NCBI GenBank assembly: GCA_009914755.4 | Contig: CP086569.2 | Location: forward strand, 8,032,001-8,096,000 | DNA from: the human T2T-CHM13v2.0 reference genome, Homo sapiens | DNA: 64,000 nt | Direction: 5' to 3' | Part shown: positions 47,441 through 51,069 of the stretch, piece after piece | Numbering within the stretch: position 1 is the first letter of the stretch | Layout of the letters: every line of letters begins with the position of its first letter | Translations under genes and position numbers: made by a program | Notes under the pieces: model-generated | What the model saw: only the letters and a program-made list of their open reading frames with translations | Told to the model about the DNA's origin: nothing | Database searches by the model: none

Positions 47441-48825
47441 GGTTTTTCATTCAGCTGTATTTCACAATTCCTTTGGTAAGCAGGACCCAGGCAGGAGAGG
47501 AGAGTTATACCATTTAAACACTAATTTATGCGATATTTCAAAATTTTTTTCTGGAGGCAGAGAGGCCTGGAGGGACATGTAACCTAGCTGATAGAAGAAG
47601 AGATATGTGATAATATACCCTATTGACAGGACTCATGCAGAAGTATCACATTATTGTGATTCTGAGCCAGCATTACGTAAAAATGCTCCCGTGGAAAGGA
47701 ATTTGAGCCAAAAGACTCAACCTGGGTACTAGGCCCAGAAATATGACACAATCTCATCATCTTTGTAGGTGACAACGTTAACTTTTAGCTAAGTGTGTAT
47801 ATTAGAGTGACAATCTCACATGTTTGCTGCGACAATGTATGACCCTCTGCAACATCCAAGGGACTTATAAAACGTGCATAAGAGTTGCAAAGCTCTCTGA
47901 AGCCTACGTGCTGGTATGGACTCACAATCTTACGTATTATCTTAAACCCAGGTTTGATAGTTGACATCTCTCCTATAGGCAGGGTTAAGGAAAAAGACCC
48001 ATTATTATTTCTGTGGGCTGGGTTTAGAAATGACTGACCATCCCACTTGTGGCCAGAGCCACATATAAATTTCACAATTCCAACTTTGTGCTGTATTCCT
48101 GTGTTAGACTCTTGATCTTAACAGTGGGCATTGTAAATGTGGGATGGTGACAACTTTTAATTTCACCTGGGTTTGTAACCTAGAGCCCCAATCTGAAATT
48201 TTGGCCAGGCCCTGTTATGAAATTTTATAGCACCAAAGAGTTTATATGATATAAGTTAGTATTGTAAGCTTCTGTGAGGTTGTTACATACATGTAACCCA
48301 GGAGATTATCTATTCCTCCAAGCCTAACAATGAAAGGCAAAATATCTTCTATTGCCTGAATCCCAATATAAGTGTGAACATCATGTCTGTGAACTGAAGC
48401 AAGGTATAGGTCATAATCCCATATGCTGGCAAAAACTAGGCAGGAGGGTAACATCACTTAGATGCTGTGCCAGGCAATATGTTACATGCCTTCCTTAGGC
48501 AGGGCATAGGAAATTTGGTCATATTAGCTGGGTGCTGGACCTAGCAATATGACACCATCTCACATGTGGAAAAAACCCAGTCAAGTTATGGGAGCCAAAA
48601 CACCTACATAAAGAGACCAAGATATGTCAAAATACCTTCAGTGGCTCCAGCACAGGAGGACAGTCACATAAAAATGGTCCTGGACTGAGCAATATACAAT
48701 ATGCCATAAGTTCTTCTATATGCAGAAACAAAGCAGAAGAGTAACATCATCCGGGTACTGGGCCCTGCAGTAGGTCACAATTCCTGTTTTGTGAGAATGA
48801 CTTTGAAAAATGAGGAGATTCACAT

Positions 48826-49879
48826 TTTGTAGTTTGCCTGTTCACTCTGATGGTAGTTTCTTTTGCTGTGCAGAAGCTCTTTAGTTTAATTAGATCCCAT
48901 TTGTCAATTTTGTCTTTTGTTGCCATTGCTTTTGGTGTTTTAGACATGAAGTCCTTGCCCATGCCTATGTCCTGAATGGTAATGTCTAGGTTTTCTTCTA
49001 GGGCTTTTATGGTTTTAGGTCTAACGTTTAAGTCTTTAATCCATCTTGAATTGATTTTTGTATAAGGTGTAAGGAAGGGATCCAGTTTCAGCTTTCTACA
49101 TATGGCTAGCCAGTTTTCCCAGCACCATTTATTAAATAGGGAATCCTTTCCCCATTGCTTGTTTTTCTCAGGAGATTCCTCAGGGATCTAGAACTGGAAA
49201 TACCATTTGACCCAGCCATCCCATTACTGGGTATATACCCAAAGGACTATAAATCATGCTGCTATAAAGACACATGCACACGTATGTTTATTGCGGCATT
49301 ATTCACAATAGCAAAGACTTGGAACCAAACCAAATGTCCAACAATGATAGACTGGATTAAGAAAATGTGGCACATATACACCATGGAATACTATGCAGCC
49401 ATAAAAAATGATGAGTTCATGTCCTTTGTAGGGACATGGATGAAATTGGAAATCATCATTCTCAGTAAACTATCACAAGAACAAAAAACCAAACACTGCA
49501 TATTCTCACTCATAGGTGGGAATTGAACAATGAGATCACATGGACACAGGAAGGGGATATCACACTCTGGGGACTGTTGTGGGGTGGGGGGAGGGGGGAG
49601 GGATAGCATCGGGAGATATAACTAATGCTAGATGATGAGTTAGTGGTTGCAGCACACCAGCATGGCACATGTATACATATGTAACTAACCTGCACAATGT
49701 GCACATGTACCCTAAACCTTAAAGTATAATAAAAAAAATTCAAAAAAAATAAAATAAATAAAGTTCCATATCAACTTTAAAAAAAAGAATCTATTGGTGC
49801 CTTGATCTTGAACTTCCCAGAGTATAACTGTGAGAAATAAATTTCTATTGTTTATAAGCCAGAAAAAAAAAAGAAAGGA
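48826..49879 (+). mobile_element. L1 insertion (young L1PA-like) with a twin-priming 5' inversion. The inverted ORF2 segment is 48826–~49172 and the direct ORF2 C-terminus plus 3'UTR is ~49173–49760. A ~118-bp 3' transduced sequence with its own poly-A follows (49762–49879). A 20-bp TSD flanks the insertion.
   Basis: The TSD 'aaaaatgaggagattcacat' lies at 48806–48825 and 49880–49899; joining the two flanks reconstitutes a normal satellite monomer. 48826–49172 'tttgtagtttgcctgttcactctgatggtagtttcttttgctgtgcagaagctc...' is antisense L1 and is nearly identical to 32829–33175. 49173 onward, 'attcctcagggatctagaactggaaataccatttgacccagccatcccattactgggtatataccc...', is sense L1 running to 'ccctaaaccttaaagtataataaaaaaaattcaaaaaaaataaaataaataaa'. 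After that comes non-L1 sequence 'gttccatatcaac...gtttataagccagaaaaaaaaaagaaagg'. Confidence 0.85.
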
Positions 49880-51069
49880 AAAAATGAGGAGATTCACATA
49901 TCCTGAGTGCTGGGCTCAGTAATGTGCCAAAATCCTCCTATTGTGAATGCCCAGGCAGAAAAACAGAATCACATCACTTAGGTCATGAGCTCAGACATTT
50001 GTCCCAATGTCCCCAGTAGGCAGGGTTCAGGCACACAAGGAGGGTCATATCACCTGTGTGCTTCCCTAGAAATATGTCATAATGTAAAATGTGGGCAGAA
50101 ATTAGGCAGAAGAGCCACATCGCCAGAATGATGGGTTCTGAGATATTTCACAAGGCTCTCTTAGGACAGCACCCAGCAAAGATAGTTACATCACCTAGGT
50201 GCAGGTTCTCTGTTTATGCTACAATTCTCCATGTGGCCTCCATGTGCATAGGACCCAAGGAGGGAGTCACTTCACCTAGGGGATAGGCCCAGAGATATGT
50301 CGCAATGACCTCTATGAAGCATAGCCCTAGCAAAAGAGTACTATCACCTGTGTGCCTGGCCTAAAATATGTCACTGTCAAGGTTGGCAGGGCCCAAGCAG
50401 GAAAGCCACATAACCTAGGTGATAAACCCAGAGATATGTCACAATGCCCTTTTGTGGGCATGGCTCTGGCAAAATAGTACCTTCCCCAGTGTACCTGGTC
50501 TTGCAGTGTGTCACTGTCATTCCTTTTTGCAGGGCTCATTCCAGAGAAGAGAGTTACATAACTTATGAGGTGGACACAGAAATATGTTGCAATAAGTTTG
50601 GTGTGCCTGGCACAGGAAAGAATGTAACATCACCTTGGTGTTAGATCCAGTGATATGTCACAATCTTTACTGAAAGAAGTGCCCAGGCAGCAGAGTCACA
50701 TCACCTGTAGGTTGGCCTACATAGATATGATAATCCCATATATACACTGGAAAAAGCCTGGAGAGTCAAATTAAACAGGTGCTTGGCAAAGATTTATATT
50801 ACAATCACATTGTCAGAAAATTCCAAGGGTGAGATTTACAATGCCACACATGTCCTGTTTTCATATATGACAGTTGGTTTTATCCATATGAGATGATGAT
50901 AGTTCTTACTGTCAGCTGGTTGTGCATACCAGATTCACAATTTCTACTGTGTCCTGAGCCGTGTTTTGACTCTGTCTGTATAACCTAAAGACTTTATAAA
51001 ATATGTGTGCTTGTTGTAATTTTTTGTAAACTTTGTACAAGAAAGAGATTCAGGACATTTGGGATCCCT

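What the first reader, a model, noticed from the sequence alone, without database searches (positions are those of the whole stretch)
48806..49899. Textbook L1 insertion with three hallmarks at once: twin-priming 5' inversion, 3' transduction and a 20-bp TSD, inside a satellite monomer
Between identical 20-mers 'aaaaatgaggagattcacat' (48806–48825 and 49880–49899) lie three parts:

- ~347 bp of antisense L1 ORF2, roughly L1 positions 4.56–4.9 kb.
- ~590 bp of sense L1 ORF2 C-terminus plus 3'UTR ending in an A-rich tail. The junction at ~49172 is near a shared 'ctcagg' string, with ~500 bp of L1 missing between the two segments.
- ~118 bp of non-L1 sequence ending in a second poly-A, 'gttccatatcaac...ccagaaaaaaaaaagaaagg', which is a 3' transduction from the source locus.

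Joining the two TSD flanks reconstitutes an intact satellite monomer. The transduced tag could identify the source element.
Basis: seen in the sequence. Interest (0 to 1): 0.55.

Follow-up and report, generated by a model that had tools for sequence, protein, structure and literature searches.

The report
Old L1 insertion: inverted, with transduction
This is an ordinary, ancient primate L1 retrotransposon copy that landed in a decayed satellite-like repeat and shows three well-known by-products of L1 integration, so it is a neat teaching example but not a discovery.

Summary
Two exact 20-mers (48806-25 and 49880-99) flank a 1054-bp insert.

- **Inverted L1:** 48826-49172 is antisense L1 ORF2, residues 920-1035 of solved human ORF2p, E about 1e-71.
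- **Sense L1:** 49173-49526 is sense ORF2, residues 1159-1275 plus the stop codon. The 3'UTR, L1's own AATAAA and a 32-nt A-rich tail follow.
- **Non-L1 tag:** 100 nt (49763-49862) ending in an A-tail.

With one 20-mer copy removed, the flanks align without an indel at the join to seven paralogous stretches of the host repeat.

- The inverted piece is about L1 4.75-5.09 kb, not 4.56-4.9 kb.
- The missing L1 is about 365 nt, not about 500.
- The tag starts at 49763.
- The host is a very diverged ~71-bp tandem repeat that default TRF does not detect.

New detail: 76 of the tag's 100 nt are a fragment of a high-copy interspersed repeat. It is cut off 21 nt after an AATAAA and followed by untemplated A's, the mark of a polyadenylated read-through RNA.

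Twin priming plus a 3' transduction is the best reading, but the source locus could not be searched, so the transduction stays inferred. Both features are common, so novelty is nil.

The parts
48806..48825 (.). 5' target-site duplication (20 bp, AAAAATGAGGAGATTCACAT); host-repeat sequence
   Evidence: Exact copy of 49880-49899, with only 2 hits in the window. It aligns to the AGAGTCACAT part of the host repeat in 7 paralogues.
48826..49172 (-). Inverted L1 ORF2 fragment, 347 bp. It covers ORF2p residues 920-1035, about L1 nt 4748-5094. The end next to the 5' duplication is the 3'-most L1 coordinate.
   Evidence: PDB sequence search gives E=1.5e-71 to human ORF2p. It is 91.9% identical to the L1 copy at 32836-33179. 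It has no T-tract or A-tail of its own.
49171..49172 (.). Inversion junction; GG could belong to either L1 piece (2-nt microhomology)
   Evidence: Read directly from the sequence against the in-window L1 copy. The assignment of GG to the sense piece assumes the L1 consensus reads GGCGATTCC there, which is from memory.
49173..49526 (+). Sense L1 ORF2 C-terminus (residues 1159-1275) plus stop codon TGA at 49524-26
   Evidence: PDB sequence search gives E=8.8e-75; stop codon confirmed.
49527..49730 (+). L1 3'UTR (about 204 nt), running into L1's own AATAAA at 49728-49733
   Evidence: 89% identical to the L1 3' end at 31878-32460 on the minus strand; AATAAA checked.
49731..49762 (+). First A-rich tail, AAAAAAAATTCAAAAAAAATAAAATAAATAAA (81% A). 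Interpreted as the source element's genomically encoded tail, read through by transcription.
49763..49862 (+). Non-L1 tag, 100 nt. 49763-49785 is low-complexity or unique. 49786-49861 is a fragment of a high-copy interspersed repeat (MaLR/MLT1-like, name from memory). AATAAA lies at 49836-49841.
   Evidence: No significant match elsewhere in the window. The 19-mer occurs in at least 120 metagenome contigs. The tag aligns at 82-88% to those copies only over 49786-49861, and their consensus continues past the tag's end. No Rfam family matches.
49863..49879 (+). Second, terminal A-tail (A10 GAAAGGA), starting 21 nt after the tag's AATAAA; not templated by the repeat
49880..49899 (.). 3' target-site duplication

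Best explanation
A single L1 target-primed reverse-transcription event inserted 1054 bp into a decayed ~71-bp tandem repeat. The element is an older primate L1PA-type L1, not human-specific L1HS.

1. **The RNA (inferred).** It was a read-through transcript of a source L1. Transcription ignored L1's own AATAAA, ran through the source's A-rich tail and about 100 nt of downstream flank, and was cleaved and polyadenylated 21 nt after an AATAAA. That signal lies in a fragment of an interspersed repeat.
2. **First nick (shown as a site, inferred as a step).** L1 endonuclease nicked the bottom strand at 5'-CATTTTT/CAAAG-3'. The T-run primed on the terminal poly(A). Reverse transcription copied the tag, the L1 tail, the 3'UTR and ORF2 back to about codon 1158.
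3. **Second nick and second priming (inferred).** The top strand was cut 20 bp downstream. Its 3' end (...TTCACAT-3') annealed inside the same RNA at AUG(G)GA, about codons 1035-1037. It primed a second cDNA back to codon 920.
4. **Joining (inferred).** The two cDNA ends were joined at a GG microhomology. This gave an inverted 5' piece, a sense 3' piece, loss of about 365 nt of L1 between them, and a 20-bp duplication.

The anatomy is shown directly. The order of events is inferred from the published twin-priming and 3'-transduction models.
For: - Exact 20-bp duplications, with a chance expectation of 0.02.
- The empty site is collinear with 7 paralogues.
- The antisense and sense pieces are both about 96% identical in protein to human ORF2p, over residues 920-1035 and 1159-1275. 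They are similarly diverged from the same in-window L1 copy, at 91.9% and 89.3%.
- The high-coordinate end of the inverted piece abuts the 5' duplication, with a 3-nt overlap (CAT of the duplication against ATG of L1). This extends to 5 of 6 nt.
- The gap of 367 nt was measured on a contiguous L1 copy.
- The tag is not array sequence.
- The tag's AATAAA lies 21 nt before the A-tail.
- The repeat consensus from 90 copies reads on (...TTTATAAGCC|ACCCAGTCTATGG...) where the tag switches to A's.
- Literature, inversions: 5' inversions occur in 18% of germline L1 insertions, and only 46% of them have a gap or overlap within 20 bp (PMC12016303).
- Literature, transductions: about 25% of L1 insertions carry a 3' transduction and 71% of those detected were under 100 bp. 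79% of transduction endpoints had a polyadenylation signal nearby, which typically lies 10-30 bp upstream of the end. Transducing source L1s show 5'-inversion rates of 21-46% (PMC13009371).
Against: - The source locus (an L1 followed directly by this tag) was not found. Five scans of metagenome, prokaryote-genome and viral collections were empty. None of these holds a human genome, so this is absence of a test rather than a negative result.
- The nick site is TTTT/C. It is not one of the three motifs (TTTT/A, TTTT/G, TTTC/A) counted as canonical in PMC12016303, although about 37% of germline L1 insertions in that study also lack a canonical motif.
- A 365-nt gap is larger than the gaps of 20 bp or less seen in 46% of inversions.
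- The L1PA assignment rests on remembered diagnostic positions, not on a tool.
Confidence: 0.82

Rival explanations
1. Template-switch chimera. ORF2p started reverse transcription on an unrelated short polyadenylated RNA that ended at the interspersed repeat's AATAAA site. After about 100 nt it jumped to the 3' end of an L1 RNA. The tag is then not from the L1 source locus.
For: The sequence alone cannot tell a contiguous read-through RNA from two RNAs copied in series. L1 chimeras with other RNAs are documented (bioRxiv 10.1101/2025.02.02.635956). The tag has a bona fide polyadenylation signature.
Against: The L1 part keeps its complete 3'UTR and a 32-nt interrupted A-rich tail (TTC and T interruptions). 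That looks genomically encoded rather than freshly added, although later mutation could mimic it. Transductions are far more common, at about 25% of insertions and mostly under 100 bp (PMC13009371). From memory, catalogued chimeras usually put the partner RNA 5' of L1.
Confidence: 0.07
2. Two nested events. A plain inverted L1 inserted first. Later, a separate 117-bp retro-copy of some RNA's 3' end inserted into the L1's A-tail.
For: L1 A-tails offer many TTTT/AA-type sites. Any second duplication would be A-rich and invisible here.
Against: This needs a rare orphan insertion to hit a 30-50-bp target. No second duplication is discernible. One event explains everything.
Confidence: 0.04
3. The inverted piece is not from twin priming. 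It is either an independent antisense L1 insertion next to the sense one, or a later DNA inversion with deletion.
For: None specific. Other L1 fragments do sit in this repeat, at 51727-52727 and 11690-11992.
Against: The inverted piece is an internal ORF2 fragment with no A/T tail and no duplication of its own. The single 20-bp duplication spans both pieces. Both pieces are equally diverged. The L1 end abutting the duplication is the one twin priming predicts.
Confidence: 0.02
4. The 'transduced' segment is native satellite sequence.
For: None.
Against: The tag has no significant match anywhere in the 64-kb window, which holds about 37 kb of the host repeat. The paralogues align across the empty site without it. 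Most of the tag belongs to a different, dispersed repeat family.
Confidence: 0

Closest known systems
L1 5' inversion by twin priming (Ostertag & Kazazian 2001, as cited in PMC12016303)
   Same: An inverted upstream L1 piece is joined to a sense 3' piece inside one target-site duplication. The inverted piece's 3'-most L1 coordinate lies next to the 5' duplication. There are short microhomologies at the priming site (3 nt) and at the junction (2 nt).
   Different: Nothing essential. The gap of about 365 nt between the two cDNAs is larger than the gaps of 20 bp or less seen in 46% of cases, but it falls within the other 54%.
Partnered L1 3' transduction (read-through past L1's weak poly(A) signal; described in PMC13009371)
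   Same: The order is L1 AATAAA, A-rich tail, non-L1 sequence, AATAAA, 21 nt, then a second A-tail, all inside the duplication. The 100-nt length is typical of short transductions.
   Different: The source element was not identified here. Three quarters of the tag is itself an interspersed-repeat fragment, whose AATAAA served as the terminator.
L1 chimeric retrocopies formed by template switching or RNA ligation (bioRxiv 10.1101/2025.02.02.635956)
   Same: Two sequence modules arrive in one L1-mediated event within one duplication.
   Different: From memory, catalogued chimeras mostly carry the partner RNA 5' of L1. Here the extra module is 3' of a complete L1 tail, which is the arrangement expected for read-through.
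Beta-satellite blocks interspersed with KRAB zinc-finger genes (Eichler et al. 1998, human 19p12; title seen in the reference list of PMC2443715)
   Same: The host has ~71-bp units with a recurring GTCACATCACCT...ATATGTCACAAT motif. It sits in blocks of about 16-21 kb flanking a segment that holds a decayed C2H2 zinc-finger array.
   Different: The name and locus are not tested; no repeat library was available. The units are only 52-70% alike, so this is a decayed array and not a homogeneous satellite.

Membership tests
L1 (LINE-1) target-primed insertion | Sequence homology to L1 ORF2 and 3'UTR | tested here: met
   E about 1e-71 and 1e-74 to solved human ORF2p, about 96% identity. 89-92% nucleotide identity to another L1 copy in the window.
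L1 (LINE-1) target-primed insertion | Target-site duplication flanking the whole insert, and an intact empty site after removing the insert and one copy | tested here: met
   Exact 20-bp duplication. Collinear alignment with 7 paralogues, with no indel at the join.
L1 (LINE-1) target-primed insertion | 3' poly(A) abutting the 3' duplication | tested here: met
   A10GAAAGGA at 49863-49879, directly before 49880.
L1 (LINE-1) target-primed insertion | Endonuclease nick at a TTTT/A-type site on the bottom strand | tested here: inconclusive
   The bottom strand reads 5'-CATTTTT/CAAAG-3'. The T5 primer is present but the +1 base is C, so it is not one of the TTTT/A, TTTT/G or TTTC/A motifs used in PMC12016303.
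Twin-priming 5' inversion | The inverted piece derives from L1 sequence upstream of the sense piece, with both inside one duplication | tested here: met
   Codons 920-1035 are antisense and codons 1159-1275 are sense; one duplication pair.
Twin-priming 5' inversion | The 3'-most L1 coordinate of the inverted piece abuts the 5' duplication, marking the internal priming site, with complementarity to the top-strand 3' end | tested here: met
   48826 corresponds to codon 1035. The duplication's 3' CAT overlaps L1 ATG, and 5 of 6 nt match over ATGTGA against ATGGGA.
Twin-priming 5' inversion | The inverted piece lacks its own poly(A)/T-tract and its own duplication | tested here: met
   Read directly from the sequence.
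Twin-priming 5' inversion | Small deletion or duplication of L1 between the two cDNAs | tested here: inconclusive
   The gap is about 365-367 nt. It is not small, but 54% of published inversions exceed 20 bp.
L1 3' transduction | Non-L1 sequence lies between L1's own poly(A) signal and tail and a second poly(A), inside the duplication | tested here: met
L1 3' transduction | The transduced piece ends 10-30 nt after a polyadenylation signal, and the A-tail is untemplated | tested here: met
   AATAAA at 49836-41, 21 nt before the tail. The repeat consensus continues with ACCCAGTCT... where the tag has A's.
L1 3' transduction | The same sequence lies immediately 3' of a source L1 elsewhere in the genome | not testable with these tools
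   No host genome is available. Scans of other collections were empty. None of 120 repeat-bearing contigs exceeds 88% identity or extends into the L1 tail.
L1PA (pre-human-specific primate L1 subfamily) | Subfamily-diagnostic 3'UTR positions | not testable with these tools
   From memory only. The site that reads ACA in L1HS-Ta reads GAG here (agatgatGAGttag), and the site that is G in L1HS is A here (cttaAag). No L1 consensus library was available.
Beta satellite | Tandem ~68-bp monomers matching the family consensus | tested here: inconclusive
   A ~71/76-bp period with 52-70% matches appears only under lenient settings, and default TRF finds nothing. A literature search for a monomer motif found nothing.

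The most novel reading that the evidence does not exclude
The tag is not a read-through of the source L1's flank. Instead it is the 3' end of an unrelated transcript terminated in an interspersed repeat, copied first and then joined to L1 RNA by ORF2p template switching. Together with the second priming event, one integration would then have used two RNA templates and two DNA primers.
Probability: 0.07. Interest if true: 0.25.

Novelty: already known. Interest (0 to 1): 0.08.

Why it matters
It matters little beyond bookkeeping. The copy is a clean worked example of L1 integration by-products. If the source were found, the tag would link this copy to its progenitor and help date activity of that L1 lineage. 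It also shows that an AATAAA inside an interspersed-repeat fragment can terminate L1 read-through transcripts. None of this challenges current understanding: 5' inversions occur in about 18-22% of L1 insertions and 3' transductions in about 25%, so the combination is expected in thousands of genomic copies.

Tried and rejected
1. **Possible source in the window.** A local alignment ran from the L1 tail into the 3' flank of the L1 copy at 31842-31880 on the minus strand (ATATCAAC...AATCTA.T.GTG), hinting at a source or sibling. Its score of 27 is matched or beaten by 7 of 141 A-run-led segments, one of which is the tag matching itself, so it is chance.
2. **Source-locus scans.** Exact 22-28-nt tag patterns found nothing in metagenome contigs, prokaryote genomes or viral contigs. 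These collections hold only stray host DNA, so the result is uninformative.
3. **Exact-protein look-ups.** Two ORFs, one spanning the inversion junction and one spanning the tag and 3' duplication, were not on record.
4. **Rfam.** Nothing matched over 48600-50100, so the tag is not a known small RNA.
5. **Pfam.** Neither L1 ORF2 fragment gave a hit at E up to 0.01. The PDB sequence search was decisive instead.
6. **Literature string searches.** Searches for the repeat motif and for the satellite motif found nothing, so both family names rest on memory.
7. **Ostertag & Kazazian 2001** (PMC311219) is not held. A 2025 survey was used instead.
8. **CTCAGG as the junction microhomology.** Rejected because both copies are retained.
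Full report
**Observation.** The 20-mer AAAAATGAGGAGATTCACAT is present exactly twice in the 64-kb window, at 48806-48825 and 49880-49899. There are no further hits even at three mismatches, and 0.02 are expected by chance. The bases just outside the two copies differ (G against A on the left, T against A on the right), so the duplication is exactly 20 bp. The two copies enclose 1054 bp.

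**The L1 parts.**
- Read on the minus strand, 48826-49172 is an open 115-codon stretch. It matches solved human LINE-1 ORF2p at residues 920-1034 (8uw3_A numbering), E=1.5e-71. A slightly longer query carries the match to residue 1035 or so.
- Read on the plus strand, 49173-49523 matches residues 1159-1275, E=8.8e-75. The stop codon is at 49524-26.
- Both pieces are about 96% identical in protein to the human element.
- If ORF2 starts at nt 1991 as in L1.3 (from memory), the inverted piece is about nt 4748-5094 and the sense piece starts at about nt 5463-5465. The missing stretch is about 365-368 nt.
- This was checked independently on a contiguous L1 copy in the same window (minus strand, 31842-33179). 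Both pieces align to it at 91.9% and 89.3%, and they lie 367 nt apart.
- After the stop come about 204 nt of 3'UTR, L1's AATAAA (49728-33) and a 32-nt interrupted A-rich tail.

**Geometry of the inversion.**
- The end of the inverted piece next to the 5' duplication is its highest L1 coordinate (codon 1035). The end at the internal junction is its lowest (codon 920).
- This is the arrangement the twin-priming model predicts. The top-strand 3' end released by second-strand cleavage anneals inside the L1 RNA and primes a second cDNA towards the RNA's 5' end.
- The duplication's 3' end (...TTCACAT-3') is complementary to the L1 sequence at that point. ATG is shared outright, and ATGTGA against ATGGGA matches at 5 of 6 positions.
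- At the internal junction, GG (49171-72) could belong to either piece.
- The inverted piece has no tail and no duplication of its own. This rules out an independent antisense insertion.
- A 2025 long-read survey found 5' inversions in 18.4% of germline L1 insertions and 21.9% of somatic ones. Only 46% had the two cDNAs within 20 bp of each other (PMC12016303). A 365-nt gap is therefore unremarkable.

**The trailing 117 bp.**
It is followed by A10GAAAGGA.
- It has no significant match elsewhere in the window, which holds about 37 kb of the host repeat.
- No Rfam family matches.
- A 19-mer from the tag (CTGTGAGAAATAAATTTCT) occurs in at least 120 metagenome contigs, evidently stray host DNA.
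- Ninety of these copies were aligned. 49786-49861 is a fragment of a high-copy interspersed repeat, 82-88% identical to individual copies. From memory it is a MaLR/MLT1-type LTR; this was not tested.
- The repeat consensus continues ...TTTATAAGCC ACCCAGTCTATGGTATTTTG..., whereas the tag stops there and switches to A's. That point is 21 nt after an AATAAA at 49836-41.
- The second A-tail is therefore untemplated and sits where cleavage and polyadenylation would place it.
- This is the signature of an RNA 3' end. Together with the retained L1 AATAAA and tail upstream, it is the standard anatomy of a partnered 3' transduction.
- Published figures: about 25% of L1 insertions carry a transduction, and 71% of those detected by long reads were under 100 bp. 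79% of transduction endpoints had a polyadenylation signal nearby, which typically lies 10-30 bp upstream of the end. Transducing source L1s show 5'-inversion rates of 21-46% (PMC13009371).

**What is not shown.**
- The defining proof of a transduction is the same tag lying directly 3' of a source L1 elsewhere. This could not be tested, because no host genome is among the collections.
- Five scans with tag-specific patterns were empty. Two exact-protein look-ups found nothing. None of the 120 repeat-bearing contigs is the source.
- A hint that the L1 at 31.8 kb might share the tag's first bases is at chance level.
- Two rivals for the tag therefore remain: a template-switch chimera and a nested second insertion into the A-tail. 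Both are less parsimonious and much rarer than read-through. Together I give them about 0.1.

**Host sequence.**
- Default TRF sees no array here.
- Autocorrelation shows peaks at 71, 76 and 147 bp. Lenient TRF finds patches of ~71-76-bp units with 52-70% matches across 1-21 kb and 48-64 kb. A typical consensus unit is GAGAGTCACATCACCTAGGTGCTAGGCCCAGTGATATATCACAATACATACTGTGGGCAGGGCCCAGGCAG.
- About 1-kb stretches around the insertion have paralogues at about 70% identity at seven or more places.
- The empty site, rebuilt with a single copy of the 20-mer, aligns collinearly with seven of them. There is no indel at the join, and the 20-mer falls on the conserved AGAGTCACAT motif.
- 'Inside a satellite monomer' is thus right in substance, but the satellite is old and decayed.
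- The middle of the window carries a decayed C2H2 zinc-finger array. This recalls the zinc-finger and beta-satellite architecture described for human 19p12 (Eichler 1998, title). That identification was not tested.

**Integration site.** The bottom strand reads 5'-CATTTTT/CAAAG-3'. There is a T5 primer, but a C follows the nick, so the site is near-consensus rather than canonical. About 37% of germline L1 insertions lack a canonical motif in PMC12016303.

**Age (inference).**
- From memory, the 3'UTR lacks the human-specific L1HS diagnostic bases. It reads GAG where L1HS-Ta reads ACA, and A where L1HS has G. Several CpG sites have decayed.
- The tails are short and interrupted. The element is about 4% diverged in protein from active human L1.
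- This points to an old, fixed L1PA-type copy. No consensus library was available to name the subfamily.

**Verdict.** The finding is a tidy but entirely ordinary example of known L1 biology.

Noticed in passing
window 42750-43660, minus strand: Decayed C2H2 zinc-finger array with an 84-bp period. Two fragments score above Pfam's cut-off for zf-H2C2_2. Every frame has stops and frameshifts, and there is no ORF of 90 aa or more. It is probably a KRAB-ZNF pseudogene.
   Followed up: partly
window 1-21000 and 48000-64000 against 22000-48000: Two blocks of the diverged ~71-bp repeat (about 40-43% GC) flank a 26-kb AT-richer segment without it. That segment holds L1, Alu-like pieces and the zinc-finger pseudogene. 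The layout recalls the published 19p12 zinc-finger and beta-satellite organisation; the locus was not verified.
   Followed up: partly
window 31842-33751, minus strand: Another L1 3' portion (ORF2 C-terminus, 3'UTR, A-rich tail), contiguous across the region deleted in the studied insert. It was used as an internal reference. It is 89-92% identical to the insert.
   Followed up: yes
window 51727-52727 (+) and 11690-11992 (-): Two further, more diverged L1 fragments (82-89% identical to the insert) also lie inside the satellite-like blocks. The 51.7-kb copy has an A17 run at 52148-52164 in its middle and a shorter spacing than expected between the two matched parts. Its structure was not resolved.
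   Followed up: no
window 9517-9810, 37394-37676, 44388-44681: About 290-bp segments that match many stray host contigs at 79-86%, and an ORF whose translation has the look of Alu sequence. These are probably Alu elements, which would be consistent with a primate origin of the window.
   Followed up: no
loci L001-L120 (metagenome contigs): The metagenome collection holds plenty of mammalian host DNA.
   Followed up: partly
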